IMG/VR virus record: IMGVR_UViG_3300000478_000009
Location: 1-15,446 of that record
Reading direction: 5' to 3' (one strand)
DNA: 15,446 nucleotides
Origin: a virus
The position numbers were made by a program, and so were the translations under genes. Shown here in pieces: positions 1-14,872 of this stretch. The stretch's first letter is position 1, and every line of letters starts with the position of its first letter. A model generated the notes under the pieces. The model saw only the letters and a list, made by a program, of their open reading frames with translations. It did no database searches and had not been told where the DNA came from.

Positions 1-1005
1 TGAATATCATGGTCGCCAATTTCAACGTTTAGGACTTCGACGTCATAGACTCTCATTCCATTTTCGTTGAAAACCATTCCTGGACGTGGAGAACCATCTT
101 CTGATTTCTTACCAAGAATGATGTTACGAACATGATCTTCGCTTGCCGACCAGAAATCTTCTACTCTAATCTTGCGAAGAGAGGCTTTCACCACACTTCG
201 TACGTGATCGCAGAGAAGTTTTACATAGTTGGATACGCTAAACCACTTCGTGGGATCGTCTCCTTCAAAGTTGACTCTTAGAGCAACCTTTAGTTGCACC
301 TTGACATGATCAGCAGTTTCGGCCGTGATAATGTCGGTTACTTTGTTGTGCTCAACCTGGAGATAAGCAGTCTTGAACAACTTATCTGTGGTCTTTGGAC
401 GCCAGTGCTTAGAGCAAGAGTTTCCAAAGTTTCATTGAATCCAAGTAGAACACGCTGTGGTCCTCTTTCTACACGGCGATTACCGGCAGTATCAACTACC
501 ATAACAGCATAACCTGTCCACGGGTTGATTTTTGGAACGCGGCAAATTTGTCATTTCCAAGCGTGACGGTTCGAGGTTCGGAATAAGTTGCGGCACGAGT
601 AAACTCGTCACCACCCATTTCTGCTCCGGACTGATAAGCCGAAAAACTTGCATCGGCAAATACAGCTTCCTCTAGGCGCATGCTGTTAGCAGCAAGGCCC
701 TTCTTTTTCATCGTAGTTGCTAGATCACCCTCAGAAACCATGCCCCGACGAGTAGTCGGAGAACGTTGCTGGATAGCTCTAAGAGTACGGTTGTACTCCA
801 TCGCCTCAGCATTTCCAGGATACATTGCCTCAGATTCGGCATCAGTTAGAACACGACGAACAAACACCTCTTTTCGAGGATCGGGTAGGCACATTGTGCC
901 ATCCTTGCCGCCATGAACCATTCGAATTGCTCCGGTATGACGGTCGAGAACATATCGTCCATCACCAGCCGGAATAGCCGTTGCAAAATGCTTTGTTTTC
1001 CGTCA
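1..1005 (-). pseudogene. Downstream continuation of the major-vault-protein (MVP) homolog, readable only by switching frames at least three times. Segment 1003->499 is the listed 496..921 ORF. Segment 552->381 is in a second frame. Segment 431->1 is in the original frame and runs off the window.
   Basis: Manual translation of the minus strand gives three stretches that each match MVP. 'TAIPAGDGRYVLDRHTGAIRMVHGG' corresponds to MVP '[27 protein letters not shown]'. 'RVPKINPWTGYAVMVVDTAGNRRVERGPQRVLLGF' corresponds to MVP '[30 protein letters not shown]'. 'RPKTTDKLFKTAYLQVEHNKVTDIITAETADHVKVQLKVALRVNFEGDDP...VEVLNVEIGDHDI' corresponds to the MVP shoulder '[52 protein letters not shown]...VVSSVDVQSVEPVD'. 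The three stretches are in three different frames. The MVP comparison is from memory, not a database search. Confidence 0.5.
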
Positions 1006-2051
1006 TAGCGAATGGCAGAATGCTGTTCGCATGGGAAATAAATTGGCGTAGTTTCGCCAGTAATGAAAAGCTCGTCGCCTTCCTTGTAGGTTTTACCCTT
1101 TGGACCATGATCACCACTGGTATCAGTGTACTCGGCAATAACCTTGATATGAAGGCCCTGAATAGAACCATTCAATTCGATTGGTCGGAAAATGCGCTCG
1201 CCATCATTGTTTGTGTAAAACGTTTCGGTTGGAAGTGGGAAAACCACGTCTGGTCCACGAACATAACGCTTGTTTCCGTTTTCGTCGATAAGAATGCAGT
1301 ATTGGAGACGCTCTAGGGTAAGAGCTTCACGAACATACTTGCCTCTCTCGTCAGCTACAACTTCGATACCGGTCGGAGGAATGTAGAAGCTAACTTCCGT
1401 TCCTCTAATAACCAATAGTCGGCCTACGGAAAGATCCTCAGGGATGCTTTCGGTTGCAACCAAAACTTCTGCTTCGGTTTCATCAGGTGAACCGGAGGAT
1501 TTTTTGGTTGTAGCATCGGCCGATGCTTTCTTCATAACTGCATCGGTCCAGTTTTCCTTTGCTGCTTGCTCGTCGTACACACGTACGATAAGATACTGGT
1601 TACTGCGAAGCTGATGGCCTTCAATAACCTTGACATGCTGTCGAGGCCAAAGAGCAAAGCTTACAGGGCCAGGAATATGTACACGCTGACCAATCAGAAG
1701 CTCCACATCAACAGACTTGGTGCCTGCTTCTGGAAATTTTCCATCCTTGGTCGGGTTGTACATTACTGCATAGTGACCAGTTGGCACCACAGTATTAACC
1801 TGTGCTGCTTCACTAAGAGGCACTGCCTCAAAGCGACCAGACTGGATATTGTAGACAACTGGTTCATCCTGCGCTTGTGCGTTAACAACAGTAGGACCGC
1901 AACGAACACAGGTTACACCATTGGTTGTATCACGAGTATACACGAATTCACCACGTGGCAATACTAACTCATTGGTCGTACGCCTGCTGGCTCTACGCCG
2001 TGGTATGCCTCGTTCGTCGAGTTCATCGACATAATCAAGTTCATCAGCCAT
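846..2051 (-). CDS. Major vault protein (MVP) homolog, N-terminal MVP-repeat region. This is an intact 401-aa ORF whose native reading appears to continue beyond its stop in other frames.
   Basis: ATG at 2051 with GGAG 9 nt upstream. 'VNTVVPTGHYAVMYNPTKDG' matches MVP '[24 protein letters not shown]'. 'FYIPPTGIEVVADERGKYVREALTLERLQYCILIDENGNKRYVRGPDVVF' matches the MVP repeat '[49 protein letters not shown]'. 'GDELFITGETTPIYFP' matches 'GDHWLIRGPLEYVPS'. The last ~45 codons before the stop at 846 do not match, because the real frame switches near 996-1003. Confidence 0.7.
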   Translation of the reverse strand: MADELDYVDELDERGIPRRRASRRTTNELVLPRGEFVYTRDTTNGVTCVRCGPTVVNAQAQDEPVVYNIQSGRFEAVPLSEAAQVNTVVPTGHYAVMYNPTKDGKFPEAGTKSVDVELLIGQRVHIPGPVSFALWPRQHVKVIEGHQLRSNQYLIVRVYDEQAAKENWTDAVMKKASADATTKKSSGSPDETEAEVLVATESIPEDLSVGRLLVIRGTEVSFYIPPTGIEVVADERGKYVREALTLERLQYCILIDENGNKRYVRGPDVVFPLPTETFYTNNDGERIFRPIELNGSIQGLHIKVIAEYTDTSGDHGPKGKTYKEGDELFITGETTPIYFPCEQHSAIRYDGKQSILQRLFRLVMDDMFSTVIPEQFEWFMAARMAQCAYPILEKRCLFVVF

Positions 2052-2064
2052 TTTGTTTCTCCGT

Positions 2065-2118
2065 TTTGTAAGATCCGGAGCTAGCTTGACCTTTGTAAGA
2101 TCCGGAGCTAGCTTGACC
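2065..2118. promoter_or_regulatory. Perfect tandem direct repeat, 2 x 27 bp (TTTGTAAGATCCGGAGCTAGCTTGACC), 14 nt upstream of the MVP-like start codon. Each unit carries the palindromes TCCGGA and AGCTAGCT, a GATC site and a TTGACC -35-like hexamer. Candidate operator/promoter.
   Basis: Units at 2065-2091 and 2092-2118 are identical base for base. The palindromes are read directly from the sequence. On the plus strand TTGACC(2086-2091)-17 nt-TAGCTT(2109-2114) resembles a sigma70 promoter, but it points away from the MVP gene. Confidence 0.6.
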
Positions 2119-2149
2119 GACGTGGATTACTTCATAAACCGGGATATGA

Positions 2150-2185
2150 ATCTTAGAATAAGAAAGAATTCGGGTGGTCGAATTT
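2150..2185 (-). terminator. Weak hairpin (AATTCG/CGAATT, loop GGTGGT) followed by a T-rich tract on the minus strand. It lies between the 99-aa gene and the MVP-like gene.
   Basis: Inverted repeat at 2167-2172 / 2179-2184. The minus-strand downstream sequence is TTCTTTCTTATTCT. The stem is short and AT-rich, so this is weak. Confidence 0.25.
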
Positions 2186-2191
2186 GATAAA

Positions 2192-2491
2192 TTAAACAGT
2201 GGCTTTTGCTTTTAGGGCTACCTGTTCTAGCCAAGCAAGCAGATTATCATCAACTAAATCTACTTCCCTTTTAAGCTCTTCAATCATGGCTTCATCGGCT
2301 TCTTCGGAAGGCTCGAAATACTTGTGTAGATCAGACCAAGCTTTTGTTGCTTCTTGCATGGCCTGTATAAACTCTTTGAGAATATCTTTTCCTTCACCAC
2401 CAAGATTGCGTTGTAAAACATCGCCTGTATCAATTTGTTCTTGAATGGCTTCTCGAATTAGCTGTCTGAGTTGTGACCTGGTGATTTTCAT
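2192..2491 (-). CDS. Hypothetical acidic 99-aa protein.
   Basis: ATG start. It overlaps the upstream gene by 1 nt (TAATG coupling). No recognisable motif. Confidence 0.5.
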   Translation of the reverse strand: MKITRSQLRQLIREAIQEQIDTGDVLQRNLGGEGKDILKEFIQAMQEATKAWSDLHKYFEPSEEADEAMIEELKREVDLVDDNLLAWLEQVALKAKATV

Positions 2492-2745
2492 TATTGCGTC
2501 CGTTTCTCTTCGAAAAGATATTCTAACAAATATCCTAGTTTCTGTTCTTCGAGATTTTCTCTTGATTTCTTACTTTGCTTTTCTTTCGGCAAAAGCTTTT
2601 CAATGCGGAAATTTAGCAAAGGTTTGCCATTGATGGTTGGTTGTCCAAGTTCGTTGACTCCAATAGACTTCACTTTAATTCGTTTATTCTTAAATTTACC
2701 GCCTAAAAGGATATCACCAACTTCTATGTCTAGTTCTATGGACAT
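2491..2745 (-). CDS. Hypothetical basic 84-aa protein.
   Basis: ATG at 2745. It is translationally coupled to the 99-aa gene. The lysine-rich middle (GGKFKNKRIKVKSIGVNELGQPTINGKPL) suggests a small nucleic-acid-binding protein, but this is speculative. Confidence 0.5.
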   Translation of the reverse strand: MSIELDIEVGDILLGGKFKNKRIKVKSIGVNELGQPTINGKPLLNFRIEKLLPKEKQSKKSRENLEEQKLGYLLEYLFEEKRTQ

Positions 2746-2761
2746 TGAACTTAAATAGCAA

Positions 2762-2784
2762 AAGCCCGATGGAAAATCGGGCTT
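2762..2784 (-). terminator. 9-bp stem-loop (AAGCCCGAT-GGAAA-ATCGGGCTT) between the HNH gene and the 84-aa gene. Putative terminator or attenuator.
   Basis: Perfect inverted repeat 2762-2770 / 2776-2784 with a 5-nt loop. Both strands have U-rich flanks (GCUUUGGGUUUG on plus, UUGCUAUUU on minus). It sits only ~17 nt upstream of the 84-aa start, so attenuation or RNA processing is as likely as full termination. Confidence 0.45.
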
Positions 2785-2877
2785 GCTTTGGGTTTGTAAA
2801 GCAGAAACTTATCTTAAGTTGGGTTTTAGGAACATTGTACTACAATCATTGCAATACTGCGTTATCAAACCTGGATA

Positions 2878-3723
2878 TTAGAAGTTGAGATTTGGATGCT
2901 CTTTTTTATGACATTCAGAACACAATACCAGACCCGACACGTTATTTTTAATATGATAATCAGCTACCTGTTCTGCTATGTGAATTTTTAGATTGAACAT
3001 TTTATCATTATTGGGATGAATGGATTTTGAAATAAAATATTCCCAATTATTTTCTTCTGCTACTGTTTTCAAGATGGTTGAAAAATTTTCTTTGTCATGG
3101 TGTACGTGCAAATTTTTTGGCGACTTACATTTTTTACATTTAAATTGCGCAGCTGCTAACAAGGGGTATTTCCATTCCTTGTAAAGTTTGGTGTTTGAAT
3201 AGGAAACCTCATAAAGAGATGAAATTCCGCCTTTCCATTGTGAATGTTCTGGTCCGTAGAGTGTTGGCACGGTTCCATTCAAGCGACCTTTCTTCATACG
3301 TTCAGCCCGAACTTTGAGTTCTTCAGAGTTGGAAGAGATTGTTTCAGAACCTTTTACTCCGTATTGAGCTACAGAAGAGTGGTCTTCTTTAGTTAAGCCC
3401 TTGTTCCAGATTCTTAATTCACCTTCCTTCCACATTCTGTTTCGTGTCTTTTGACTTTTTTCTTGAGCTTTTTTATTGTTGCCCCAATTGTTTTTACCGG
3501 ATACACAGGCGGCGTGCCCTCGAACAAATTCTCGAAATCCACGTGACATGTCAAGATACTTTACTTCGCCACCGCAACCACACCCACACGTGGGTTCAAT
3601 GCCATTGCGGTATAAAAGTGTATAAAGCTTCTTCGATGTTCCTTTGTGCAATTTACGAAAATGCACAGACAAAGAAATTAGTTTGGAATATTGTTTATCA
3701 CAAATGGGACAGTTAAAAGACAT
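2878..3723 (-). CDS. HNH homing-endonuclease-like protein with an N-terminal C2H2 zinc finger. The likely true start is the ATG at 3723; the ORF track starts at an in-frame TTG at 3759.
   Basis: N-terminus 'MSFNCPICDKQY...HFRKLH' is a C2H2 finger. A CGCGCGG cysteine cluster follows. C-terminus 'CKKCKS...HVHHD...N...CSECHKKEH' is the HNH motif with flanking CxxC pairs. The gene is AT-rich relative to the structural genes. GGAG lies 10 nt upstream of ATG 3723. Confidence 0.8.
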   Translation of the reverse strand: MSFNCPICDKQYSKLISLSVHFRKLHKGTSKKLYTLLYRNGIEPTCGCGCGGEVKYLDMSRGFREFVRGHAACVSGKNNWGNNKKAQEKSQKTRNRMWKEGELRIWNKGLTKEDHSSVAQYGVKGSETISSNSEELKVRAERMKKGRLNGTVPTLYGPEHSQWKGGISSLYEVSYSNTKLYKEWKYPLLAAAQFKCKKCKSPKNLHVHHDKENFSTILKTVAEENNWEYFISKSIHPNNDKMFNLKIHIAEQVADYHIKNNVSGLVLCSECHKKEHPNLNF

Positions 3724-3757
3724 GAGCCATACTCCATTGTTAGTTTGAGTATGGCTC
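3724..3757 (-). promoter_or_regulatory. 11-bp perfect stem-loop (GAGCCATACTC ... GAGTATGGCTC, 12-nt loop) whose 3' arm ends exactly at the HNH start codon. The GGAG Shine-Dalgarno sits in the stem.
   Basis: Inverted repeat 3724-3734 / 3747-3757. The SD GGAG is the complement of CTCC at 3733-3736. Phage homing endonucleases such as I-TevI are classically controlled by this kind of RBS-sequestering hairpin. Confidence 0.6.
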
Positions 3758-3853
3758 AAATGCTGTTAGTTGTATAGGTTACTGTATGTTTTGATATTGC
3801 TTGTTGCTTCCCCATATACTCGTAAGCCCTTGAAAACACAGGGGAAAAATAAC

Positions 3854-4345
3854 TCAAAATTGTAAAACTGCGTTGTCGAAGCGGATGGTCAGCGAAATTT
3901 CTGCAAGGTCAGCAGTTGAGTCGTAAGAAACGTCATTGAAGTTAGCTTCTGTAATAAATGCGCCCTTGATATCCCATAGCTGAACTACGGTACCAACTGG
4001 GTCAAGCATTTTGAGCTGAATGTCACGCTTGTAGAAATCTGCGTAACCACCACGGCCGGAAACTGATTCGAAGCAGAGTCGGATCCATTCCATTACCTGT
4101 TGTGCGCCTGCTGGTGCGATTGGATCGTGAAGAGTAACCGAAATCGTACCAAAGGTTGTCTTACCTGCGAGGTAACGAGTGTGGTTAATCCAATTGACCG
4201 TAACTTCTTCTGTGGTGTAAGTTGGTCTTGCTGCGGTCTTCACAATGAAAGAGTCAATGCCTTCAATAGCAAGTAAGAATCTACGCTTTGCAAGCGGTTC
4301 AAACTTGGTAGGTAGCATATCGGTTACTGAAAGAGTTTCTGCCAT
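3854..4345 (-). CDS. Tail tube protein, T4 gp19-like.
   Basis: ATG start with GGAGA 8 nt upstream. 'RRFLLAIEG...FIVKTAARPTYTTEEVTVNWINHTRYLAGKTTFGTISVTLHDP...AQQVMEWI...LWDIKGAFITEANFNDVSYDS...ISLTIRFDNAVLQF' runs parallel to T4 gp19 'PNLFQVEIS...FQCKATALPAGIVEKIPVGFMNRKINVAGDRTFDDWTVTVMND...ARQKFVDWQ...IKGLWPTNVGELQLDWDSNNEIQTFEVTLALDYWE'. The T4 sequence is from memory. Confidence 0.7.
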   Translation of the reverse strand: MAETLSVTDMLPTKFEPLAKRRFLLAIEGIDSFIVKTAARPTYTTEEVTVNWINHTRYLAGKTTFGTISVTLHDPIAPAGAQQVMEWIRLCFESVSGRGGYADFYKRDIQLKMLDPVGTVVQLWDIKGAFITEANFNDVSYDSTADLAEISLTIRFDNAVLQF

Positions 4346-4398
4346 GGTTTATTCTCCGAACTGTTCCTTTTCTTAAATAGTGGTTTCAACAGTTTTTA

Positions 4399-4890
4399 GT
4401 GGATGCTCAAATCCTTGTAGATGTAAATAGTCATGTTTTAGATTTTCTACTTACTTACACTATCGTTCTTCTTGTTTTGATGAATTTAGTCATTTTCAGG
4501 TTACATCAAACAAACATAACTATCATCATGAGTTTTTATTGCAATGGTTCTGTTGGTGGTATGCCAATAAAATTGAAAATTCTAAGCACGTCGGAAGAAC
4601 GTACAAAAGGTTTCCAATTCCAAAAAAACCCACCCATGTTAGGAGAAGGGTTGCTGTTTCTCTTTGACGAACAAGAACCGCAAACATTTCATATGAGAAA
4701 TGTCGGCTTCGATATTGACTTACTTGGATTTGACTCTGTTGGTCGAATGGTTTGTAAACTGCCGATGAAAGCACAAGCAGAAAAACTCTATAAGACGCCA
4801 CCGGTCAAGTTTGTCATTGAGGCACCGAGAGGTTGGGCAAAATGTTTAGAGCCAGGAGAATGCGTTCTGAGGGTAAGAAGAATATCTTGA
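4399..4890 (+). CDS. DUF192 (COG1430)-like small protein with an N-terminal hydrophobic anchor. The start is uncertain: GTG at 4399 as in the track, or ATG at 4480, 4528 or 4561.
   Basis: Core 'ERTKGFQFQKNPPMLGEGLLFLFDEQEPQTFHMRNVGFDIDLLGFD..GRMVCKLPM........YVIEAPRGWAKCLEPGECV' fits the DUF192 pattern (GLM.R...GMLF.F....FWMKNT..PLDI.F.D..G.V.....M.P......VLE...GW.....GD.V). 'LLTYTIVLLVLMNLVIF' is TM-like. No good SD before any candidate start. AT-rich. Confidence 0.5.
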   Translation: MDAQILVDVNSHVLDFLLTYTIVLLVLMNLVIFRLHQTNITIIMSFYCNGSVGGMPIKLKILSTSEERTKGFQFQKNPPMLGEGLLFLFDEQEPQTFHMRNVGFDIDLLGFDSVGRMVCKLPMKAQAEKLYKTPPVKFVIEAPRGWAKCLEPGECVLRVRRIS

Positions 4891-4894
4891 GACC

Positions 4895-5512
4895 CTACTT
4901 TACTCTTTGTTGAAGCAAGTACACATAGGTCTCATGAGTGTTTGCCGATGCTGCTAGTTGATCATTTAGACCAAGAGTAAGAGCACCCATTTCCTCTAAT
5001 GATGCAAACATAGACTCAAGAAAGTCAAGATACGCCTTTTCAAGCCTAAGGCCAGATTCAGCAATTTCGTCAGCTGAAGCATCTACCATACAACCAGCTT
5101 CCTCCATAATTTTGACAGCATTTGAAGCAATCATCAATGGGCAAGCAAGATTTTCATCATTAGTAACACCAACGGCTTTCTCAATCGCACCGTCGATCTC
5201 ATCTTGAACTTCTGTATAGATGCGATCATAAAGTTCAGCATGATCACCAGAGAAGCCGGTACCTTTTGTTAGATGATGTGCTGCATGAAACCAAAGATGA
5301 ATGGCTCTAAGATAAGAAACATATCCTGCCAAAAAATTTTTGCAATCAGCAGAAATTTCTTTGGTTGAAAGTTTGTCAACTGGTTCGGTGTTAAATTGAA
5401 TAGGAGCAAGTTCAGGTTCAACAGAAACAATTGGTGCATGCATGTCTGCGACCATGTCTACCTGTTCTTTTAGAATTCCTGCCAGTTGTTGCCATCTTTG
5501 TTTGGTACTCAT
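4895..5512 (-). CDS. Dps/ferritin-like four-helix-bundle protein with a ~70-aa N-terminal extension.
   Basis: ATG start with GGAAG 5 nt upstream. 'LRAIHLWFHAAHHLTKGTGFSGDHAELYDRIYTEVQDEIDGAIEKAVGV' parallels E. coli Dps '[47 protein letters not shown]'. The Dps sequence is from memory. Confidence 0.5.
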   Translation of the reverse strand: MSTKQRWQQLAGILKEQVDMVADMHAPIVSVEPELAPIQFNTEPVDKLSTKEISADCKNFLAGYVSYLRAIHLWFHAAHHLTKGTGFSGDHAELYDRIYTEVQDEIDGAIEKAVGVTNDENLACPLMIASNAVKIMEEAGCMVDASADEIAESGLRLEKAYLDFLESMFASLEEMGALTLGLNDQLAASANTHETYVYLLQQRVK

Positions 5513-5534
5513 TGTTCTTCCAATGTTCCAATAT

Positions 5535-6455
5535 TTACTCAGATAAGTAGTTCAATAAAACTTCAATAGGCATTCTTGATTCGACCATCCGATCTTCATC
5601 TGATTTCTTTTCTTGTTCAACCAACTCCATGACCTGTTCAACAATGTTGCTAAAGGCAAGCTCGCCCAATCTAGAACCACCAATCTCTATATATTGCAGC
5701 TTGTCAACCAGACGTTCCTTATCAATCTTTGCCAGACGTTTAAAATAATCAAGGTAACTCTGTTCTCTTCCTTCACGTTCTTCGAATTTGGCAAGAGCTT
5801 TGACAAAATCTTTTAGCTTTAGATTCGGATCTGACATGTCAATGCCAGCATCAAAAAAGTATTCATACTCAGGCTTTGAACCGCCACGATAAACAGCATT
5901 GTAATATGGTTTGGACTGTAGATACTCCTCACGGGAATATTCCTGCCATTGTTCTTTCCCTGGTGGTTGAATCCAAACACGGGTAATTTGAGAAGGTTTT
6001 ACCAATCCCATCAATAATGCTTGAGGCTCAGCCCCGCTGGAAAGAAGCGTGTAAGACATCCAGGGTCTAAAGGAATTTGGAAACTTTTCTTTGACCCAAT
6101 CAAGAGCGGTTTGACCTTTCTCTCTCGTTATGTCTCGTCCAGTAACACCACTCCAATCAGTACCGTGGAGAAATTTTGCGTATGTTTTTATTTCTATAAC
6201 TGCTCCACTACCAAATTGCCTAGCAGTTTCAAAATCTGGAGCAACGAAAACGCCTCTGTGTTCACTACCACCATATACACGTCGATAAACTTGGCGTGCA
6301 TCAAAACCATTAATCATTCTGGCTAATTCAAGCGGTGTTGTTCCATGATAAACTGTAATAACGTCTGTTGGTTTAGCATTGGCAATTTCTTCTCGTTTTT
6401 CGGGGTCAATTGCCTCAAGAAGAAGAAATAGATTGTTTTTTTTAGCTAATTTCAT
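5535..6455 (-). CDS. ADP-ribosyltransferase-fold protein of the H-G-T-motif clade (KptA/Tpt1 RNA 2'-phosphotransferase or PARP-like NAD-binding lobe), plus a ~200-aa C-terminal region of unknown function. The track starts at TTG 6479; ATG at 6455 is preferred.
   Basis: 'ITVYHGTTPLELARMINGFDARQVYRRVYGGSEHRGVFVAPDFETARQFGSGAVIEIKT' parallels E. coli KptA '[53 protein letters not shown]' (from memory). The N-terminal Arg-rich RNA-binding half of KptA is absent. Confidence 0.5.
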   Translation of the reverse strand: MKLAKKNNLFLLLEAIDPEKREEIANAKPTDVITVYHGTTPLELARMINGFDARQVYRRVYGGSEHRGVFVAPDFETARQFGSGAVIEIKTYAKFLHGTDWSGVTGRDITREKGQTALDWVKEKFPNSFRPWMSYTLLSSGAEPQALLMGLVKPSQITRVWIQPPGKEQWQEYSREEYLQSKPYYNAVYRGGSKPEYEYFFDAGIDMSDPNLKLKDFVKALAKFEEREGREQSYLDYFKRLAKIDKERLVDKLQYIEIGGSRLGELAFSNIVEQVMELVEQEKKSDEDRMVESRMPIEVLLNYLSE

Positions 6456-6722
6456 GGTTCTAACAGCAGCATCTTTCAAGAATAATTAGGATAGTAAGGC
6501 AAGTAACGAATAAAAATACCCTTAAAGAAGCAACTTAGTTTATTTAGTCTTGTGATTAATGATTTCATTTTTATGTTTTTATGGTCAATTGTCGAAACTT
6601 ATGAAGGAAAACCTATTTATTCAAGCCAATACTTGGCACCGTGTAATCAAAGGACCCAATGCGAAACTACCATTGGTTGTCAAAATCTTCAAATATCTAA
6701 AGAAGAACGGATAATTACAAAC

Positions 6723-7574
6723 ATGGCAAACTTAGAACAACTTTTGGAATGGCTTCTCAATGAACAAGAGGACCAAAAATATGATATCGATTACGTTTTA
6801 CATGAGCCAAAGCGTAAAAAAATTCCTCACGAGAAGCTAAATCTCTACAAAAATGAGGGAGCACATAACATTCTAGCTGCGCTCAAAAAGGCTTCAAAAG
6901 AAGAGATAGATTATTGGAGCAATTGGTATCAACATGCTCATGGCCACGTTAGAGAACTTGCCGAACAATACGATATTCCTGTTGAAATAGCAGCAGCAGT
7001 TGCCGCAGTTCTAAGTCCAAATCTTGGATGGAATGCAAGCCTAATGGCCGCTAAAAGAGTTCTGGATAACTGGATGCATCTCGGCGGTGCCGAAGGATAC
7101 CAATTCTGGCCAAATATTCCTGCATACAAAACCAATGTAAACAAGGCAATGAAGATTCTTGAAACTGGGAATCTTGATTTGGTTAAAGGTCCAAAAGTTA
7201 CCGTATTCTATCACTCTCTTTTAAACCCAGACAGAGTTGAACGTGAACTTGTATTGGATGGTCATGCTATTAACGTCTGGAGAGGAATCAAAACTCCACT
7301 CAAAAATCTTAGACAACCAACCAAAGAAGAACGCAAAGCCATCATTCAAGATTATAGAAAAGTGGCAGATCTTGTTGGTTTAACTCCACAACAACTTCAA
7401 GCTGTAACTTGGTTTATCTGGAAGGCTGTAACATCACCACCTGAAGTTCATGGTCAGGTAGAAGTAGAGCAGCCAGCAGTAAAAGAAGCTCGACGACGGC
7501 TTATGCCAATGATCAAAGAGGTTGTTTCAGAACAATTGAGACGTCGAAAAATGCTCAATTCCTTTTCACTCTAA
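6723..7574 (+). CDS. Hypothetical protein, 283 aa from ATG 6723 (the track extends to GTG 6552). The only plus-strand gene inside the accessory block, convergent with the GNAT-ParB gene. It contains a 'LVLDGHAINVWRG' segment weakly reminiscent of a ParB/Srx motif.
   Basis: Long open frame with protein-like composition. The 20-nt 3' overlap with the convergent gene is acceptable. No confident family assignment. Confidence 0.5.
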   Translation: MANLEQLLEWLLNEQEDQKYDIDYVLHEPKRKKIPHEKLNLYKNEGAHNILAALKKASKEEIDYWSNWYQHAHGHVRELAEQYDIPVEIAAAVAAVLSPNLGWNASLMAAKRVLDNWMHLGGAEGYQFWPNIPAYKTNVNKAMKILETGNLDLVKGPKVTVFYHSLLNPDRVERELVLDGHAINVWRGIKTPLKNLRQPTKEERKAIIQDYRKVADLVGLTPQQLQAVTWFIWKAVTSPPEVHGQVEVEQPAVKEARRRLMPMIKEVVSEQLRRRKMLNSFSL

Positions 7575-8691
7575 TAGGAATGCCGGTTTGATGAGCCGCC
7601 CAAGCTCTATTGTGCCCGTCGGTCACATAGGCGTATTCCATTCCAAGATCATCATCTGAAAGTGGACGAGACCAGTCCAATTCGTGCTCATATCCGCCTT
7701 CTTCTGCTTCTTTGTATTGTTCAAGGTCTTGTTCATCCACAATGTGGATACCACCACGAATAGGTGGCATTCGACCCCAACCATTTTTCTTCATATAAGC
7801 AGAGAATTTAGGTATTTTTTCTTCAAAGTCTGTAGAAGCATTTACACCTGAACCACGAAAAAGTTCTGATTGAACCTCGTCCCAAGTTTTCTTTCCTTCA
7901 TTGAAAAGACCTGCCAGCCGCTTGAAACGTCTGTTTGAAAAAACCCCTTCTTCTATTGGTTTTGCATCTTTGTATCTCAATTCCCACACGTGGAGTGGAA
8001 TACCTTTATAATTGGCATAAGTAACCCTACCTCTACCGTCACCAATAGTAGAGAAAGTTTCTCCTGTCACAACAATAACCGGAGGAGGGTTGTCGCCCCA
8101 CTCCTTTGTCATTTGAGCCCAATGTTTTCCTCGAAATGCTTCGAGTTCATTGTCATCCTCTATGTCTTCCATCCATGAACTAAGATCATCATAATAGCCA
8201 AGTTCATCAACTGTAAGCTTACCAAGATATCTCAAATCGAAATCATCGTAGGATGAATCTTCGTCAACTTCTTCAAATGACATCGCAGTGTGATCAATGG
8301 CATCTGAAATATCATTGTAAGATGGCTGAGGAATGGTATTGACCGTTTCCAAACTTTCTTTAAGATGTCCAGGAGGTCGGTACATCAATTCCATAAAGTC
8401 ATAATTTTTGTAACGGCCTTTGTTTAACACAAAACCCAAACTCTTATAAAAGTTTGTTAGTTTGTTTTTGTTATAACCCCATTCTGAACTTGGAGTCAGG
8501 GTTACTATTTTTTGGACTTTGTCAGCATATTCATTGATGGCTTTAAAAATTTCTCTACCAATGCCACGACCACGAAATTTCGGGTTGACAACTATCAATG
8601 CTACAGAAATGTAATTTGGGTGTTCATAAACAACCCATTTGTCCAAATATGGCAAATATTTTTGTTTAATTTCTTTTATAGACATTGTCAT
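7555..8691 (-). CDS. Fusion protein: N-terminal GNAT acetyltransferase, then an acidic linker, then two ParB/Sulfiredoxin-like segments.
   Basis: GNAT motif A is 'LIVVNPKFRGRGIGREIFKAI' and motif B is 'FYKSLGFV'. The ParB/Srx-like signatures are 'PPVIVVTGETFSTIGDGRGRVTYANYKGIPLHV' and C-terminal 'YVTDGHNRAWAAHQTGIPIRV'. The ATG overlaps the upstream HAD gene stop as ATGA. Confidence 0.6.
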   Translation of the reverse strand: MTMSIKEIKQKYLPYLDKWVVYEHPNYISVALIVVNPKFRGRGIGREIFKAINEYADKVQKIVTLTPSSEWGYNKNKLTNFYKSLGFVLNKGRYKNYDFMELMYRPPGHLKESLETVNTIPQPSYNDISDAIDHTAMSFEEVDEDSSYDDFDLRYLGKLTVDELGYYDDLSSWMEDIEDDNELEAFRGKHWAQMTKEWGDNPPPVIVVTGETFSTIGDGRGRVTYANYKGIPLHVWELRYKDAKPIEEGVFSNRRFKRLAGLFNEGKKTWDEVQSELFRGSGVNASTDFEEKIPKFSAYMKKNGWGRMPPIRGGIHIVDEQDLEQYKEAEEGGYEHELDWSRPLSDDDLGMEYAYVTDGHNRAWAAHQTGIPIRVKRN

Positions 8692-9209
8692 TGACTGTTG
8701 TTAATTAGCAAATTAATAATCTTTTCTTTATGTTCTTTAGTAAGTCCATCCTTATCAAACGACGTTTGAACCCAATATTTTGACAATGGTCTTGCTTTAT
8801 AATACGTCCTAGACCAACCCAGGTCTTGGTCGTCCAAAATTACATATCTATCAACGCCAATATTATATTTTAACCATTCAACAACTTCTTCGGCACGTTC
8901 TGTTGGTTCATATTCGGTTCCATTGTTACTGGTTCGCCAAAGCAATACTGGAGTTGAAGAATAAATCGGATATTTCAATCCTGCTCTGGCTAAAACAACA
9001 CTCATTCGTGGGTCTACACGGGTACTGGAAGACAAAACAATTTTACACCCCGTTCTGGTCACTATGTCATTAATCATGGCAACCCTAACAGGGTCTAGGT
9101 GTTTTACCAGCTCATCTATCGTTGCCGTAAAGCTTGGTTTTGGAGCGTTTGTTTTAATCCATTCCAAATCGTTTAGAACGCCGTCTACGTCAAGAAACAA
9201 TACTTTCAT
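8688..9209 (-). CDS. HAD-superfamily phosphatase (DxDGxL motif). It resembles the small HAD phosphatases found in RNA-repair-type gene neighbourhoods.
   Basis: N-terminal 'KVLFLDVDGVLND' is the HAD motif I. A later 'VILDDQD' is an HAD motif-IV-like acidic cluster. ATG start. Confidence 0.65.
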   Translation of the reverse strand: MKVLFLDVDGVLNDLEWIKTNAPKPSFTATIDELVKHLDPVRVAMINDIVTRTGCKIVLSSSTRVDPRMSVVLARAGLKYPIYSSTPVLLWRTSNNGTEYEPTERAEEVVEWLKYNIGVDRYVILDDQDLGWSRTYYKARPLSKYWVQTSFDKDGLTKEHKEKIINLLINNSQ

Positions 9210-9251
9210 GTGTCCATGTTGAGCTAAAAACTTTAGCGTTTAAACGACGAA

Positions 9252-9272
9252 AGCCTCGTCTTAGACGAGGCT
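9252..9272 (-). terminator. 9-bp GC-rich stem-loop (AGCCTCGTC-TTA-GACGAGGCT) between the 82-aa gene and the HAD gene.
   Basis: Perfect inverted repeat. On the minus strand it is followed by UUUCGUCGUUU. Candidate intrinsic terminator or RNA-stability hairpin. Confidence 0.45.
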
Positions 9273-9297
9273 CTCAAATCTTTCTAGTAAGACTAGG

Positions 9298-9546
9298 TTA
9301 TGATTTTATTAACCAATCTTCATGTATTATCTCTACAGAGTTTCCTAAAATTAGGAAGAGCCATTTTCCTTCGTCAGGAAAAGGAAAATTTTGTAAATTT
9401 TGCCACCCACTAGCATCAAACCAATATTGTGGAATTGATACACTTTTTTTGCTTAATAAGAATCGATCAACAACAAGACAAAATTGAGGTCTGTCAGAAG
9501 GAAATTTTCGTTTCACGAGACTGCCTATTGCAAATGGTTTACGCAT
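9298..9546 (-). CDS. Hypothetical 82-aa protein.
   Basis: ATG start overlapping the GIY-YIG stop by 8 nt. No recognisable motif. Confidence 0.4.
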   Translation of the reverse strand: MRKPFAIGSLVKRKFPSDRPQFCLVVDRFLLSKKSVSIPQYWFDASGWQNLQNFPFPDEGKWLFLILGNSVEIIHEDWLIKS

Positions 9547-10414
9547 TTACCCACCCTGAGGCGCTCTTGCATTTACCTTTCACCATTTTGGTGAAGCTAG
9601 AATAAGAGATGCCTCGCTGTCTACAATCTTCTTTAGCATTTTCACTTATTATAAACTGTTCGCCAGTTATCTTGTGTTTTAAGATAATACCAGCATACTT
9701 GGCACCGGCTATCTTAGCTCTATGTTCCTCAGTCAACGGTCTTCTCTTTTCACCTTTGCGCTCAATGTATGTTGGAGGTTTCGTACCTAAAAACCAACCA
9801 CTAGATGATTTAATTTTTCTTTTGAGCATCAGGTGGAAGGATTTGTAAGAGAGATTGCGGGCCTCACACCAGGCTCTAACAGATCCTTCTATTGTGGTCG
9901 TCTCGCCCGTTTTTTTATTGGATACTGTCACATTAGCAGAATGGGCATTCCAACGTTTATGAGCATAATCTTTTGCCTTTTCTCTTAAGGAAGGATCTGA
10001 ATAAATCTTTGTCATTATTTTACTCATTTTTTCTTTTCTATCTTCCTTCCATGGATGGTAACCAATATCAACAGCATACTTTGTTCCATTATAACACATG
10101 TTCCTATTATCAAATGCTTCATCTATATATTTTTGTTCTTCTGTTACACGAAGAAGTGACCACTCGTCTTTATCGCCCGATGTTGGGAGTTTTACGACTT
10201 TTACAACCTCATATTGGAAAGCATCTTTACCACATTTATTAAAATCTCTTTGTAAAAAGAGATTGTGGTGAGTTCCCTTTTTTAGGGCAGAAAGATGTTC
10301 TCTTGAACGTTGTTTAAATCTAGCGGCAGAGCCATAATACACTCTGCCGTTTTTTTTATTTAAAATTCTATACACGCCACCGTCATTTGCGTGACCTTTG
10401 AAAATGTTTTCCAT
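9539..10414 (-). CDS. GIY-YIG homing endonuclease (Seg / I-TevI-like), free-standing, with a basic C-terminal DNA-binding region.
   Basis: 'GVYRILNKKNGRVYYGSAARFKQRSREHLSALKKGTHHNLFLQRDFNKCG...FQYEVV' carries the GIY...YIG, Arg, Glu and Asn signature. The lysine-rich C-terminus has repeated 'SSSGWFLG' / 'SASGWVNA' modules. AT-rich. AGAGG lies immediately before the ATG. Confidence 0.8.
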   Translation of the reverse strand: MENIFKGHANDGGVYRILNKKNGRVYYGSAARFKQRSREHLSALKKGTHHNLFLQRDFNKCGKDAFQYEVVKVVKLPTSGDKDEWSLLRVTEEQKYIDEAFDNRNMCYNGTKYAVDIGYHPWKEDRKEKMSKIMTKIYSDPSLREKAKDYAHKRWNAHSANVTVSNKKTGETTTIEGSVRAWCEARNLSYKSFHLMLKRKIKSSSGWFLGTKPPTYIERKGEKRRPLTEEHRAKIAGAKYAGIILKHKITGEQFIISENAKEDCRQRGISYSSFTKMVKGKCKSASGWVNA

Positions 10415-10585
10415 ATGACCTCTATATTTGCTACTGTTAGTAGTTTAGATACTTGAAGGTCATATGTCTAACGGATATCAAACACAATATTTTTTGCACA
10501 TAGAATAAAAACAAAACGAAAAAGGCCACCTTTTTCGAAGGTGGCCTTAGTCAAACTATTCATAACCTATTATTTAGGTCATATG
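10412..10585. repeat. Three copies of the 10-mer AGGTCATATG within 175 bp. One is inverted at 10412-10421, covering the GIY-YIG SD and start codon. Two are direct, at 10457-10466 and 10576-10585, and the last overlaps the MCP stop codon.
   Basis: Exact matches read from the sequence. The two direct copies are 119 bp apart and bracket the MCP terminator hairpin. Confidence 0.5.
10504..10548 (-). terminator. Rho-independent terminator downstream of the major capsid gene.
   Basis: On the minus strand, stem AAGGCCACC / GGTGGCCTT (9 bp, GC-rich) with loop TTCGAAAAA is followed by UUUUUCGUUUUGUUUUU. Confidence 0.8.
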
Positions 10586-12501
10586 ATACCCATGTCAAGA
10601 ATGGTTACGGTTGCGTAGAAGTCATTTCTGACCATCTTCTTACCGTAACGGGTCATGACACCCTTACGTGGAGTAAAGTCTTCCTGAGCGTAGATAACTG
10701 GAGTAAGGATAAGTGGCACGTATGGTGCGTAGATGAATCCTGACTCAAGGAAGGTGTTACCCTTCAATCCGACAAGAACCTTGTTGCTTGGGAAGTATGG
10801 ATCCTTGTAAACAGTGTATCTGTTGTTCAAGGTACCGACTGCCTCTGCTCCGATTACCATGTTGTCACGAACCTGACCGTCAGCATCTACTCTGTAGGAA
10901 GGCTTGTAGGCAACAAGGTGCTCAAGGATGGTGCAGACATCTGGGGAGGTAACAATGAAGTTACCGGAACCACGGAGTGTCTTACGGTGAATGGTGTTTG
11001 CTGCGTCCGTAATCGTCTCAAGAAGGGTCTGGTACCACTCTTGAATGTTTACGAAGGCCATTGGACCTGGGGAAAGCGTGCTGCTCTGAAGAGCCTCTTG
11101 TCCGGTGAACTTGTTGACAAGCTTACCTGGAGCACGAGACCAGTAGAGGTTAGCTGCGCCTGCCTGCGTAAGAAGGTCGTTCAAGATTTCACGGTCAATG
11201 TCAAGCGTGATCATCTCAGAGAGAATGTTCGTAAGCTCAACTTCTACGTCGATTGAGTAGAATGCCGTAAGGTCTTGAGCCATTTCTGGCGACCAACGAG
11301 CCCTAAGCTTACGGGTCTGAGCCGTTACGCTGGTGGACTCAATGCGGATGTCAACTTCTGGGATTCGTGGGCTGGAATCGACTGCAAAGTCAGATTCGAA
11401 GCTTGGAATCGTAAGAGTAGAACCATCAGCATTTACGCTAAGTGCGTCTGCGATTGCTGCGGAAGCGGTAACTGCGTTACCTACTGTACCATCAGGATCT
11501 GGTGGGGTACCTGCGTTTGCAAGACGAACAACGTGTAGAACGTGGGAGCCATTAAGCGGATCTGGTGTGAAGATACCGGTTGTAGCATTCCAGTTACCAC
11601 GCTGGTTCATCTGACGAAGGTTGAGCACGCCACGACCACCCTGGTACTTCTCGCCCCACTCAACAGCAGAGTTGGTTGCTGCACCGAAACCGGTGAGTGC
11701 AATCTGGTTGAGGTTGTTGAGGTCAGCACCTGTGATCTTGCCCGTGAACTCGGATGCGCTTACGAATACGAATGCGTAGTCAAGCACGCCGTCGGTAAGA
11801 TCGTTCTCAACACGGGTGTCGTACATGACGAAACGTGCGTTGAGACCTAGGAAGTCATCAGCGGTTGCTACGGAGCCACCTGGGGTCCAAATAGAACCTG
11901 ATGCCCAATAACCGACTGAGTCGGTTGAACCAGAAAGGAAACGGCTCTGCTTGTGAACCTTTGAGTAGCCGTGACCTACAAGGTCATACTGACCACCGGT
12001 TGCAAGAGAACCGGAACGGATGCCAACACCACGTGGGTTGTTGTATACCGAATCCTGGCTGGTGTAAGTTGATGGATTCACAACGCTCGTTGTTGCGAAC
12101 TGGTTAGCTGCGGTTCCAGCGTCACCACCAACCGAGCTGCCGTAGGTGTAATCGAGGTAGAAAAGAAGACCGGTTGGAAGGCTCATTGGCTGAACCGATA
12201 CGATCTCATTTGAAATCAAACCTGCGAAAACACGGCGAACGATTGGGAATGCAACGTTTGTGAAACCTGCAATCTTACCGCTTGAGGTCAAAGAAGCACC
12301 ACCGAGGGAAAGTGCGTTGGTTTCCTTGAGAAGCTCAGCTGCCTGGTTCTCAAGAAGACGTGCCATTCCGTCACGGTTCATGCCTTTGAGGCCCTCAAGA
12401 AGACCAGTTGCTCCCCACTTCTTTACAAGTCGTGGTGAGTCTGCACCAAGAGAGCGACGGTGTACGCCTTCTGCTAGTTGCTCTAAAGTAAAAGTCTTCA
12501 T
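10579..12501 (-). CDS. Major capsid protein, T4 gp23-like, 640 aa with an enlarged insertion domain.
   Basis: 'LVKKWGATGLLEGL' matches T4 'LLNKWKPLLEGEGL'. 'FPIVRRVFAGLISNEIVSVQPMSLPTGLLFYLDYTYG' matches T4 'AVMGMVRRAIPNLIAFDICGVQPMNSPTGQVFALRAVYG'. 'TRKLRARWSPEMAQDL' matches T4 'KSRQLKAAYSIELAQDL'. C-terminal 'GFIYAPYVPL...TRYG' matches T4 'GIYYAPYVALTPL...KTRYG'. ATG start with GGAG 8 nt upstream. 'LLKE|TNALSLGGAS' is a candidate propeptide cleavage site at the position equivalent to T4 'FLTE|AEIGGDHG'. Confidence 0.9.
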   Translation of the reverse strand: MKTFTLEQLAEGVHRRSLGADSPRLVKKWGATGLLEGLKGMNRDGMARLLENQAAELLKETNALSLGGASLTSSGKIAGFTNVAFPIVRRVFAGLISNEIVSVQPMSLPTGLLFYLDYTYGSSVGGDAGTAANQFATTSVVNPSTYTSQDSVYNNPRGVGIRSGSLATGGQYDLVGHGYSKVHKQSRFLSGSTDSVGYWASGSIWTPGGSVATADDFLGLNARFVMYDTRVENDLTDGVLDYAFVFVSASEFTGKITGADLNNLNQIALTGFGAATNSAVEWGEKYQGGRGVLNLRQMNQRGNWNATTGIFTPDPLNGSHVLHVVRLANAGTPPDPDGTVGNAVTASAAIADALSVNADGSTLTIPSFESDFAVDSSPRIPEVDIRIESTSVTAQTRKLRARWSPEMAQDLTAFYSIDVEVELTNILSEMITLDIDREILNDLLTQAGAANLYWSRAPGKLVNKFTGQEALQSSTLSPGPMAFVNIQEWYQTLLETITDAANTIHRKTLRGSGNFIVTSPDVCTILEHLVAYKPSYRVDADGQVRDNMVIGAEAVGTLNNRYTVYKDPYFPSNKVLVGLKGNTFLESGFIYAPYVPLILTPVIYAQEDFTPRKGVMTRYGKKMVRNDFYATVTILDMGII

Positions 12502-12556
12502 GGTATTCTCCTCGAATCTCCTGTTTCTAAGTATGTGTTAGAATATCTATTTTCCG

Positions 12557-14844: not shown

Positions 14845-14872
14845 CCTATTTCCTCAGTGGGGGAAGATGGTG

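What the first reader, a model, noticed from the sequence alone, without database searches (positions are those of the whole stretch)
1..2051. Eukaryote-type major vault protein (MVP) homolog in a T4-like phage
The minus-strand gene starting at 2051 aligns along its whole visible length with MVP. It contains several MVP repeats: the YIPP...EVV...YCILIDENGN...VRGP pattern, and a VVPTGHYAVMYNP segment matching [14 protein letters not shown]. The shoulder domain follows (TDIITAETADHVKVQLKV...). The protein continues past position 1 toward the cap-helix. MVP builds the 78-mer vault shell in eukaryotes, and only a few bacterial homologs are known. A copy next to a T4-type capsid module is unexpected. 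It could mean a phage-borne vault-like protein cage, or a decoy or compartment acquired by horizontal transfer. The fact that this region also carries a Dps/ferritin-like cage protein is noted only as a coincidence.
Basis: partly seen in the sequence, partly recalled or inferred. Interest (0 to 1): 0.85.

Follow-up and report, generated by a model that had tools for sequence, protein, structure and literature searches.

The report
Broken phage copy of vault protein
The window carries the first three quarters of a real major-vault-protein gene in a T4-type phage, but it is the bacterial and phage kind rather than the eukaryotic kind, such genes are already on record in phages, and this copy is interrupted by three single-base deletions.

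Summary
The minus-strand gene starting at 2051 encodes a major vault protein (MVP) homologue. Pfam MVP_shoulder scores 97.5 bits against a cut-off of 25. Near-identical phage contigs carry an intact 899-aa orthologue, P0001. Its AlphaFold model hits only solved human, rat and rabbit MVP chains at the top (Foldseek E 1e-24 to 1e-28), including the N-terminal repeats and a 136-residue cap helix.

The interpretation needs correcting on four points.
- The protein belongs to the bacterial and phage MVP clade. It is about 50% identical to chromosomal Myxococcota proteins and about 17% identical to human MVP.
- The family is large: about 600 clusters at 50% identity, 432 loci in bacterial species genomes, and 251 IMG/VR viral contigs, many over 100 kb.
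- Phage MVPs were reported in a 2023 preprint.
- In this window the gene is broken by three 1-nt deletions. One is shared with an independent assembly. All 37 substitutions against the intact orthologue are synonymous.

It most likely forms a soluble vault-like cage, probably made late in infection. The cage and its timing are inferred, and its cargo and role are unknown. This is a new member of a known kind, of moderate interest.

The parts
1..2051 (-). MVP homologue gene, codons 1-684 of an 899-codon gene. It runs off the window at position 1 and is interrupted by three 1-nt deletions.
   Evidence: Translations. The intact orthologue P0001 matches the repaired reading at all but one guessed junction residue, listed as 100%. 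DNA alignments to L001, L002 and L085.
348..2051 (-). N-terminal region (P0001 residues 1-569): short charged N-terminus, beta-rich vault-type repeats, a disordered acidic insert (aa 163-210), and a helical plus disordered insert (aa 404-501) before the last repeat.
   Evidence: AF2 secondary structure. Foldseek hit to the murine MVP R1-R7 crystal structure, E=3e-9. Colinear weak profile match of positions 237-361 to human MVP 295-409.
378..493 (-). Last vault repeat (R9-like), the Pfam Vault_3 match. It lies in the stretch displaced into frame 2.
   Evidence: PF17795 at 32.0 bits (cut-off 28.8) on P0001 residues 521-559. 22.6 bits on the window fragment.
12..347 (-). Shoulder (SPFH-type) domain, P0001 residues 570-681.
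   Evidence: PF11978 MVP_shoulder at 97.5 and 93.1 bits, cut-off 25. pLDDT 85-93. Aligned to human MVP 520-646.
996..999 (.). Frameshift 1: an A4 run on the coding strand where L001 and L002 have A5 (codon 351). The same deletion is present in the independent assembly L085.
540..541 (.). Frameshift 2: one G lost (GCCGGCG to GCCGCG). Private to the window.
401..402 (.). Frameshift 3: one base lost (TGGTCG or TGGCCG to TGGCG). Private to the window. It returns the reading to frame 1.
2075..2100 (-). 26-nt perfect tandem duplication in the 5' untranslated region just upstream of the GGAG ribosome-binding site. L001 and L002 carry a single copy.
2192..2745 (-). Two small co-oriented ORFs (84 aa and 99 aa) directly upstream. 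They are probably in the same transcription unit. They have no family match and are conserved only in the closest relatives.
2750..2758 (-). CTATTTAAG motif, a candidate phage promoter 13 nt before the start codon of orf84. The same 9-mer lies upstream of the tail-tube gene at 4372-4380.
   Evidence: Two exact copies in the window, both intergenic. Four exact copies in L001, all 13-35 nt upstream of co-oriented genes.
2762..2784 (.). 9-bp GC-rich hairpin flanked by T-runs (terminator-like on both strands), separating the HNH gene from the orf84-orf99-MVP block.

Best explanation
Window 1-2051 (minus strand) is the 5' three quarters of a gene for a major vault protein homologue of the bacterial and phage clade. 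It is carried by a phage with a T4-type capsid whose closest MVP-bearing relatives lie on contigs of about 350 kb.

The intact protein is 899 aa. It has a short charged N-terminus, a run of small beta-sandwich vault repeats, an SPFH-type shoulder domain, a roughly 136-residue cap helix and a C-terminal tail. It has no membrane anchor.

By analogy with eukaryotic MVP and with other SPFH cage proteins, many copies most likely associate side by side through the shoulder and the long helix. This would form a soluble vault-like barrel or half-barrel in the infected cell. It is probably made together with virion genes, because its transcription unit begins with the same promoter-like motif as the tail-tube gene.

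The cargo and purpose are not known. The likeliest role is a cage that sequesters or shelters something during infection.

In this window the gene is interrupted by three single-base deletions. Either this genome copy is inactive or the sequence contains errors.

Shown: homology, domain order, intact orthologues, purifying selection, distribution. Inferred: oligomerisation into a cage, late expression, sequestering role.
For: **Homology and architecture**
- MVP_shoulder scores 97.5 bits against a cut-off of 25. On the intact orthologue, shoulder scores 93 bits and Vault_3 32 bits, above its cut-off.
- phmmer against human MVP gives E=1.2e-18 over residues 516-848 aligned to 467-829. A family profile gives E=1.5e-33.
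- The AF2 model has a high-confidence shoulder and a continuous helix at 682-817.
- The top 12 Foldseek PDB hits are all MVP chains, E 6.5e-28 to 1.7e-23, with full-length alignments. The R1-R7 crystal structure hits at E=3e-9. SPFH cages follow only at E around 1e-6.
- There is no hydrophobic segment; the maximum Kyte-Doolittle 19-residue score is 1.02.

**Functional constraint**
- Window versus L001 shows 37 substitutions, all third-position and synonymous, with 0 non-synonymous. This matches the tail-tube gene (0 of 15) and contrasts with the neighbouring acetyltransferase (16 of 88).

**Phage residence**
- The same gene sits at the same place in three independent assemblies (L001, L002, L085).
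- Its GC3 of 0.40 resembles the tail tube (0.415) rather than Myxococcota DNA at about 0.70 GC.
- 251 IMG/VR contigs carry a relative. Of the best 80, 44 are at least 100 kb and 20 at least 200 kb.
- Relatives occur in deposited huge-phage genomes LR756500, LR756501 and LR756503.

**Promoter motif**
Against: - No experiment or multimer model shows that this protein forms a cage.
- Mean pLDDT is only 66.9, with several low-confidence stretches.
- The N-terminal repeats are not significant by sequence alone (PF01505 E=0.024-0.096).
- No conserved neighbouring gene across 84 loci points to a cargo or partner.
- No vault-RNA, Y-RNA, TROVE or PARP-type partner was seen in the flanks.
- The promoter motif rests on 2 copies in the window and 4 in L001, and the timing of expression was not measured.
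- The copy in this window cannot make the full-length protein as written.
Confidence: 0.7

Rival explanations
1. In this particular genome the gene is a pseudogene. A first frameshift (A5 to A4 at codon 351) inactivated it, and further deletions then accumulated. On this reading the phage in the window makes no vault protein.
For: There are three frame-breaking deletions within 600 nt. The first is shared with an independent, non-identical assembly, L085, which differs from the window at 99 sites, so it is unlikely to be a private error. None of the sites has a canonical slippery heptamer.
Against: There are no non-synonymous changes among 37 substitutions against L001. Differences between the window and L085 downstream of the shared frameshift are also nearly all third-position in the original frame. 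The window has a fourth private 1-nt deletion at about 13340. It splits a 763-aa head-scaffold-like ORF that is intact in L085. This suggests the window-specific deletions are sequence errors rather than decay. All four indels are deletions and none are insertions.
Confidence: 0.3
2. It is a virion component, for example a head-internal, decoration or assembly protein, rather than a free cytoplasmic cage.
For: It lies on the same strand as the capsid, scaffold-like and tail-tube genes and within that block. It shares the promoter-like motif class with the tail tube. It shows equally strict purifying selection and similar GC3.
Against: In the other 80 viral loci there is no conserved linkage to structural genes. 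The same family is chromosomal, often in two copies, in Myxococcota, which have no virions. No PHROG structural family matches.
Confidence: 0.1
3. It is a generic SPFH/band-7 scaffold like HflK/C, flotillin or prohibitin, and not a vault protein.
For: The shoulder is an SPFH fold. Foldseek finds flotillin, HflK/C, prohibitin, erlin and stomatin at E 1e-5 to 1e-7. Annotated viral structural relatives in BFVD are band-7 proteins.
Against: MVP chains score about 20 orders of magnitude better and align over the full length. The 570-residue N-terminal repeat region matches MVP R1-R7. There is no membrane segment. Pfam Band_7 reaches only E=0.031, against 6.6e-28 for MVP_shoulder.
Confidence: 0.03
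4. The MVP gene is bacterial DNA joined to phage sequence by a chimeric assembly.
For: The closest named proteins are from Myxococcota MAGs. The gene is richer in GC than its immediate neighbours.
Against: The same junctions appear in three other independent assemblies. GC is 0.47 against about 0.70 for Myxococcota loci, and GC3 matches the phage structural genes. Hundreds of viral contigs spanning GC 0.22-0.67 carry the family.
Confidence: 0.01

Closest known systems
Bacterial MVP homologues of Myxococcota and other gliding bacteria (for example Plesiocystis pacifica, two copies, and Corallococcus coralloides; Daly et al. 2013, PMC3762200; Sokolskyi 2019, bioRxiv 10.1101/872010)
   Same: Same length class (about 830-900 aa) and full-length colinearity. 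They are 44-51% identical. Pfam shows shoulder plus Vault_3. They are the nearest cellular relatives in a scan of 185,579 species genomes.
   Different: Those genes are chromosomal in genomes of about 70% GC, often with two paralogues. This one sits in a phage of about 40% GC next to capsid and tail genes, with phage-like codon composition. No function is known for either.
Phage MVPs of Caudoviricetes sp. ctOa11 and ct2Ri15 (Santos et al. 2023, bioRxiv 10.1101/2023.11.10.566534)
   Same: They are MVP homologues encoded by tailed phages, predicted to have repeats, shoulder and cap helix, and closer to bacterial than to eukaryotic MVP.
   Different: Those come from human-gut phages linked to Firmicutes. 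They were not retrieved by my tblastn of the phage collection, so direct similarity was not measured. The present gene belongs to a lineage with a gp23-type capsid whose relatives lie on 340-370 kb contigs.
Eukaryotic major vault protein and the vault particle (rat 4V60, human 9BW5 and 9MXV)
   Same: Same domain order and fold. The shoulder and cap helix are alignable by sequence (E=1e-18 for a single sequence, 1.5e-33 for the profile). The G-R/K-P-K start of the 'keyhole loop' is conserved: G551, P553 and K554 are invariant or nearly invariant in 61 family members.
   Different: Identity is only about 17%. The protein has extra disordered inserts (aa 163-210, 433-501). Five residues of the human NAD+/ADP-ribose pocket described in PMC12280208 are replaced (H509 to D, R511 to F, W545 to V, P565 to S, K573 to D in the alignment). 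No vault RNA, TEP1 or PARP4 partner was seen nearby. Assembly into a 78-mer is untested.
SPFH cage proteins (HflK/C, flotillin, prohibitin, stomatin)
   Same: An SPFH domain followed by a long helix that builds the wall and cap of a large homo-oligomeric dome (Foldseek E 1e-5 to 1e-7).
   Different: Those proteins are membrane-anchored and lack the N-terminal repeat barrel. This protein has no hydrophobic segment.

Membership tests
Major vault protein family (Pfam MVP_shoulder plus Vault repeats) | Shoulder domain scoring above the Pfam gathering threshold | tested here: met
   PF11978 scores 97.5 bits on the window fragment and 93.1 bits on P0001, against a cut-off of 25.
Major vault protein family (Pfam MVP_shoulder plus Vault repeats) | N-terminal array of vault repeats preceding the shoulder | tested here: met
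   Vault_3 scores 32.0 bits (cut-off 28.8) on the intact orthologue. PF01505 is only sub-threshold (E 0.024-0.096). The AF2 model hits murine MVP R1-R7 at Foldseek E=3e-9 and aligns full length to MVP chains. The repeat number was not determined.
Major vault protein family (Pfam MVP_shoulder plus Vault repeats) | Long cap helix directly after the shoulder | tested here: met
   A continuous predicted helix spans residues 682-817 (pLDDT 75-92) and aligns to human MVP about 647-803. It lies beyond position 1 of the window and is seen in orthologue P0001 (L001).
Major vault protein family (Pfam MVP_shoulder plus Vault repeats) | Intact open reading frame in this window | tested here: not met
   Three 1-nt deletions are present. 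The first ORF ends at 846 after 401 aa.
Eukaryotic MVP clade ('eukaryote-type') | Closest relatives are eukaryotic MVPs | tested here: not met
   The best cellular relatives are Myxococcota proteins at 44-51% identity. Human, rat and rabbit MVP are 16-18% identical in the structure alignment. The NJ tree places the query among phage and bacterial sequences. No eukaryotic sequence was in that tree.
Vault ribonucleoprotein particle | Self-assembly of MVP into a closed D39 78-mer barrel | not testable with these tools
   Only single-chain prediction was available. It needs expression and electron microscopy.
Vault ribonucleoprotein particle | Associated vault RNA, TEP1 (TROVE) and PARP4 | tested here: not met
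   There is no Rfam family in the window, L001, L002 or L085. There are no TROVE or PARP Pfam hits among called genes within 10 kb. Only the flanks were examined, not whole genomes.
SPFH/band-7 membrane scaffolds | Membrane anchor (TM segment or hairpin) N-terminal to the SPFH domain | tested here: not met
   The maximum Kyte-Doolittle 19-residue hydropathy is 1.02. Pfam Band_7 reaches only E=0.031.
T4-like phage | gp23-type major capsid protein and gp19-type tail tube | tested here: met
   The capsid protein matches PHROG 138 at E=1.6e-73, and PF07068 is recorded on the orthologue. The tail tube matches PHROG 4542 at E=4e-29. Pfam gp19 scores 24.5 bits, below its cut-off of 28.2.
T4-like phage | T4 late promoter TATAAATA, and close relationship to cultured T4-like phages | tested here: not met
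   There are no TATAAATA matches and no megablast hit to 50,697 phage records. The capsid protein is only 31-45% identical to the best deposited phages.

The most novel reading that the evidence does not exclude
Hundreds of jumbo and huge phages, including this lineage, build a vault-like protein cage inside the infected bacterium. The cage acts as a counter-defence or sheltering compartment, for example by sequestering NAD+-derived or other nucleotide immune signals in its many shoulder pockets, or by enclosing phage or host macromolecules. That would give the vault its first genetically tractable function and link it to virus-host conflict.
Probability: 0.08. Interest if true: 0.85.

Novelty: new member of a known kind. 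Interest (0 to 1): 0.45.

Why it matters
The function of vaults has been unknown since 1986. This analysis shows that a full-length MVP homologue is maintained under very strict purifying selection in a phage lineage. It also shows that relatives occur in at least 251 viral contigs, many of jumbo size, spanning GC 0.22 to 0.67. This suggests the cage has a role that is useful during infection of very different bacteria.

That offers a simpler, prokaryotic setting in which to ask what a vault does. The protein can be expressed alone in E. coli, imaged and tested for ligands.

The basic fact that phages can carry MVP genes is already published as a preprint, and bacterial MVPs have been known since 2013. 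The new points are the breadth, the association with large phages and the strength of constraint, not the existence of the gene. For this window specifically, the copy is disrupted, which limits its value.

Tried and rejected
- **Nucleotide search.** Megablast of the whole window against 50,697 phage records found no match.
- **PHROGs.** No family matched either half of the protein.
- **Window's own contig.** An exact 36-mer across frameshift 1 gave 0 hits in IMG/VR. An exact-protein look-up of the GIY-YIG gene found a 99.3% identical relative, L085, but not the source itself.
- **Programmed frameshifting or transcriptional slippage.** At site 1, a -1 slip of tRNA-Lys on GGA-AAA-C would recreate exactly the intact protein. 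I rejected this as unlikely: there is no X-XXY-YYZ heptamer, the run is only four A's, relatives read straight through with A5, and sites 2 and 3 have no slippery sequence.
- **Conserved partner or cargo gene.** All-against-all clustering of ORFs within 6 kb in 84 loci found nothing shared apart from antisense shadow ORFs inside the MVP gene. The adjacent small ORFs are conserved only in the closest relatives.
- **RNA partners.** There were no Rfam hits and no tRNAs.
- **Promoters.** The T4 late promoter TATAAATA is absent. The sigma-70 and terminator scan was at background level.
- **NAD+/ADP-ribose pocket of human MVP.** Only the GxPK loop start is conserved, so ligand binding cannot be inferred.
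- **Dps/ferritin neighbour.** Only sub-significant Dps hits were found.
Full report
**1. The observation**

It is not a single open frame. The ORF from 2051 ends at 846 after 401 aa. Three-frame translation shows the homologous reading passing from frame 1 to frame 3, then frame 2, then back to frame 1.

Pfam on the pieces gives the following:
- MVP_shoulder PF11978: E=6.6e-28, 97.5 bits (cut-off 25) on the last 143 residues
- Vault_3 PF17795: E=1.1e-4, 22.6 bits, below its cut-off
- Vault PF01505: E=0.096

The resemblance to MVP is therefore real and far beyond chance for the shoulder. On the window alone it is weaker for the repeats.

**2. Intact orthologues and the nature of the frame breaks**

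A search with my conceptually repaired 684-aa protein found P0001 (899 aa), listed as 100% identical over 100% of the query. A single residue differs, A for G, at my guessed junction for the 541 deletion. P0001 is encoded on two Logan assemblies: L001, from a 73.9 kb contig, and L002, from a 26 kb contig. Both are about 97% identical to the window in DNA and share the same neighbours.

Alignment shows that the window differs inside the gene by exactly three single-base deletions:
- A5 to A4 at 996-999 (codon 351)
- GG to G at about 540/541
- one base lost at about 401/402

A third assembly, L085 (SRR5011273), is 99.3% identical to the whole window. It shares only the first deletion. Relative to L085 the window has one more private 1-nt deletion at about 13340. 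This splits a 763-aa acidic, scaffold-like ORF into 503 + 259 aa.

All 37 substitutions between the window and L001 in the MVP gene are third-position and synonymous. Across four sequences, every variable site but one is third-position in the original frame, including sites downstream of the shared frameshift. Neighbouring genes show ordinary ratios. The acetyltransferase has 16 non-synonymous and 72 synonymous codon changes. The tail tube has 0 and 15.

My reading is that the gene family is under very strong purifying selection in this lineage. The two MVP deletions private to the window, and the one in the scaffold-like gene, look like sequence errors. The shared A4 variant may be a real allele. 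Only the reads can decide. Programmed frameshifting is unlikely (see the tried-and-rejected field).

**3. What the protein is**

On intact P0001, Pfam gives MVP_shoulder at 93.1 bits and Vault_3 at 32.0 bits, above its 28.8 cut-off. Against PDB sequences the only hits are MVP. Human MVP scores E=1.2e-18, aligning residues 516-848 to 467-829, which covers the last repeat, shoulder and cap helix. A 61-sequence family profile raises this to E=1.5e-33 and adds a weak colinear match of the repeat region.

An AlphaFold2 model built on that alignment has mean pLDDT 66.9. Confidence is above 85 for residues 30-150 and 510-700. It shows beta-rich repeats, an SPFH-like shoulder at 570-680 and a continuous helix at 682-817.

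Foldseek against the PDB gives these results:
- The 12 best hits are all human, rabbit or rat MVP chains, E 6.5e-28 to 1.7e-23, with alignments of 870-1000 columns.
- Next come four crystal-structure chains of murine MVP repeats R1-R7, E=3e-9 to 1e-8.
- SPFH cages (flotillin, HflK/C, prohibitin, erlin, stomatin) follow at E 1e-5 to 1e-7.

TM-scores are low (0.2-0.3), as expected for a long flexible multi-domain chain. No hydrophobic segment exists. The protein is a full-architecture, soluble MVP homologue.

**4. Which kind of MVP, and how common**

- *Protein databases.* The first search returned more than 2,759 significant proteins. JGI already names some of them 'major vault protein', and the first named organisms are Myxococcales and Kofleriaceae MAGs at about 52% identity. 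An exhaustive phmmer search of 1.84 billion cluster representatives found 1181 clusters at E<=1e-3 and 609 at E<=1e-30.
- *Bacterial genomes.* A scan of one genome per bacterial and archaeal species found 432 loci. The best 80 are almost all Myxococcota (Nannocystaceae, Kofleriaceae, Haliangiales, Polyangia). They are 44-51% identical, lie on contigs up to 2.9 Mb, have a median GC of 0.70, and several genomes carry two copies.
- *Viral contigs.* IMG/VR holds 251 viral contigs with a relative. Of the best 80, 44 are at least 100 kb and 20 are at least 200 kb, and their GC ranges from 0.22 to 0.67.
- *Deposited phages.* The only hits are the huge-phage genomes LR756500 (462 kb) and LR756501 and LR756503 (735 kb), at 37-40% identity and unannotated.
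- *Close relatives.* Proteins 65-73% identical lie on contigs of 343-372 kb, one of them an NCBI assembly whose flanks are dense with small ORFs.

A neighbour-joining tree of 165 sequences shows large virus-only clades. The query's clade lies next to a small bacterial group and then the main Myxococcota clade. This tree is indicative only. It uses NJ, the sample was chosen by similarity to the query, and there is no eukaryotic outgroup.

The gene's GC3 is 0.40. That matches the tail tube (0.415) and lies between the capsid gene (0.50) and the accessory genes (about 0.30). It is not a recent import from a 70% GC genome. 'Eukaryote-type' and 'only a few bacterial homologs' are therefore both wrong.

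**5. Context**

| Window feature | Coordinates (strand) | Evidence |
|---|---|---|
| gp23-family capsid gene | 10579-12501 (-) | |
| Acidic scaffold-like ORFs | 12557-14844 (-) | |
| gp19-like tail tube | 3854-4345 (-) | |
| HNH homing endonuclease, absent from L001 and L002 | 2878-3759 (-) | |
| GIY-YIG homing endonuclease, absent from L001 and L002 | 9539-10414 (-) | |

The capsid protein is only 31-45% identical to the nearest deposited phages, which are huge phage LR756508, Flavobacterium phage immuto and cyanomyoviruses. TATAAATA is absent.

The 9-mer CTATTTAAG occurs exactly twice in the window. Both copies are just upstream of minus-strand genes, orf84 and the tail tube. It occurs four times in L001, always 13-35 nt upstream of co-oriented genes, including the two genes after MVP. 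I take it as a candidate phage promoter. The block orf84-orf99-MVP, preceded by a terminator-like hairpin, would be one unit of the same class as the tail tube. Late expression is an inference.

No gene within 6 kb is conserved across the 84 MVP loci. No RNA family or tRNA is nearby.

**6. How it most likely works**

The protein has all the modules that eukaryotic MVP uses to self-assemble: a repeat barrel, an SPFH shoulder and a long helix. All solved SPFH relatives form large cyclic cages. The strict purifying selection, as tight as that on the tail tube, fits a protein whose whole surface is engaged in a regular assembly.

I therefore favour a soluble vault-like cage or half-cage made during infection. 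My confidence in the identity is about 0.97. My confidence in the cage is about 0.6-0.7. Its purpose is unknown.

The start of the human 'keyhole loop' that holds NAD+/ADP-ribose (PMC12280208; bioRxiv 10.64898/2026.05.01.722283) is conserved as G-R/K-P-K. Five other pocket residues are replaced, so nucleotide sequestration is only a testable idea.

**7. Comparison with what is known, and novelty**

- Bacterial MVP homologues were listed by Daly et al. 2013 (PMC3762200) and by Sokolskyi 2019 (bioRxiv 10.1101/872010).
- Phage MVPs were reported for two gut Caudoviricetes by Santos et al. 2023 (bioRxiv 10.1101/2023.11.10.566534).
- Borg elements carry a predicted vault protein (PMC12660748).
- The BFVD library of annotated viral proteins contains only band-7 proteins and one 802-aa Harvfovirus protein as structural relatives. 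Phage MVPs are therefore still poorly annotated.

The finding is a new member of a known kind. What this analysis adds is the scale of the family in viruses, its bias towards very large phages, the strength of selection, and the disruption of this copy.

**8. Verdict**

Interest is 0.45. The gene is real and biologically intriguing because vault function is an old open question. It is not unprecedented, not eukaryote-like, and is damaged in this window.

Noticed in passing
window 13340 (ORFs 12557-13336 and 13333-14844, minus strand): A private 1-nt deletion (GGG to GG) splits a very acidic, scaffold-like gene into 503-aa and 259-aa ORFs. The gene is a single 763-aa ORF in the 99.3% identical contig L085. 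With the two private deletions in the MVP gene, this suggests single-base deletion errors in the window sequence.
   Followed up: partly
window 2810-3865 and 9302-10578: Two free-standing homing-endonuclease insertions are present: HNH at 2878-3759 and GIY-YIG at 9539-10414. Both are absent from L001 and L002, where about 15 bp and about 7 bp occupy those sites. Both are present in L085.
   Followed up: partly
window 2750-2758 and 4372-4380 (minus strand); L001 8739, 9320, 12751, 13674: The motif CTATTTAAG is found only in intergenic DNA, 13-35 nt upstream of co-oriented genes. The shorter TATTTAA occurs 7 times in L001 and always in that position. It is a candidate promoter for this phage group, which lacks the T4 late promoter TATAAATA.
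   Followed up: partly
window 2075-2100: A perfect 26-nt tandem duplication (GGTCAAGCTAGCTCCGGATCTTACAAA repeated twice) lies immediately upstream of the MVP ribosome-binding site. L001 and L002 carry a single copy.
   Followed up: no
window 1-15446 versus L085: Divergence is mosaic. There are only 2 mismatches between about 1000 and 11000, but 17 in 1-1000 and 80 in 11000-15446. This indicates recent recombination, with one breakpoint near the first MVP frameshift.
   Followed up: no
It has only a weak PHROG 'DNA binding protein' match (E=4.7e-5). Its PDB sequence hits are sub-significant and colinear (E 0.15-0.3), three of the four chains being Dps or ferritin proteins. A Dps-like identity is plausible but unproven.
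   Followed up: partly
L001 16875-17879 and L002 15121-16125: [quoted passage not shown]
   Followed up: no
window 10579-12501 (minus strand): The gp23-family capsid protein is unusually long at 640 aa. The best-scoring stretch of its PHROG 138 match is residues 359-623 (two stretches in all), and most tblastn hits to deposited phages cover only 55-66% of it in two pieces. This suggests a large insertion domain in the N-terminal half.
   Followed up: no
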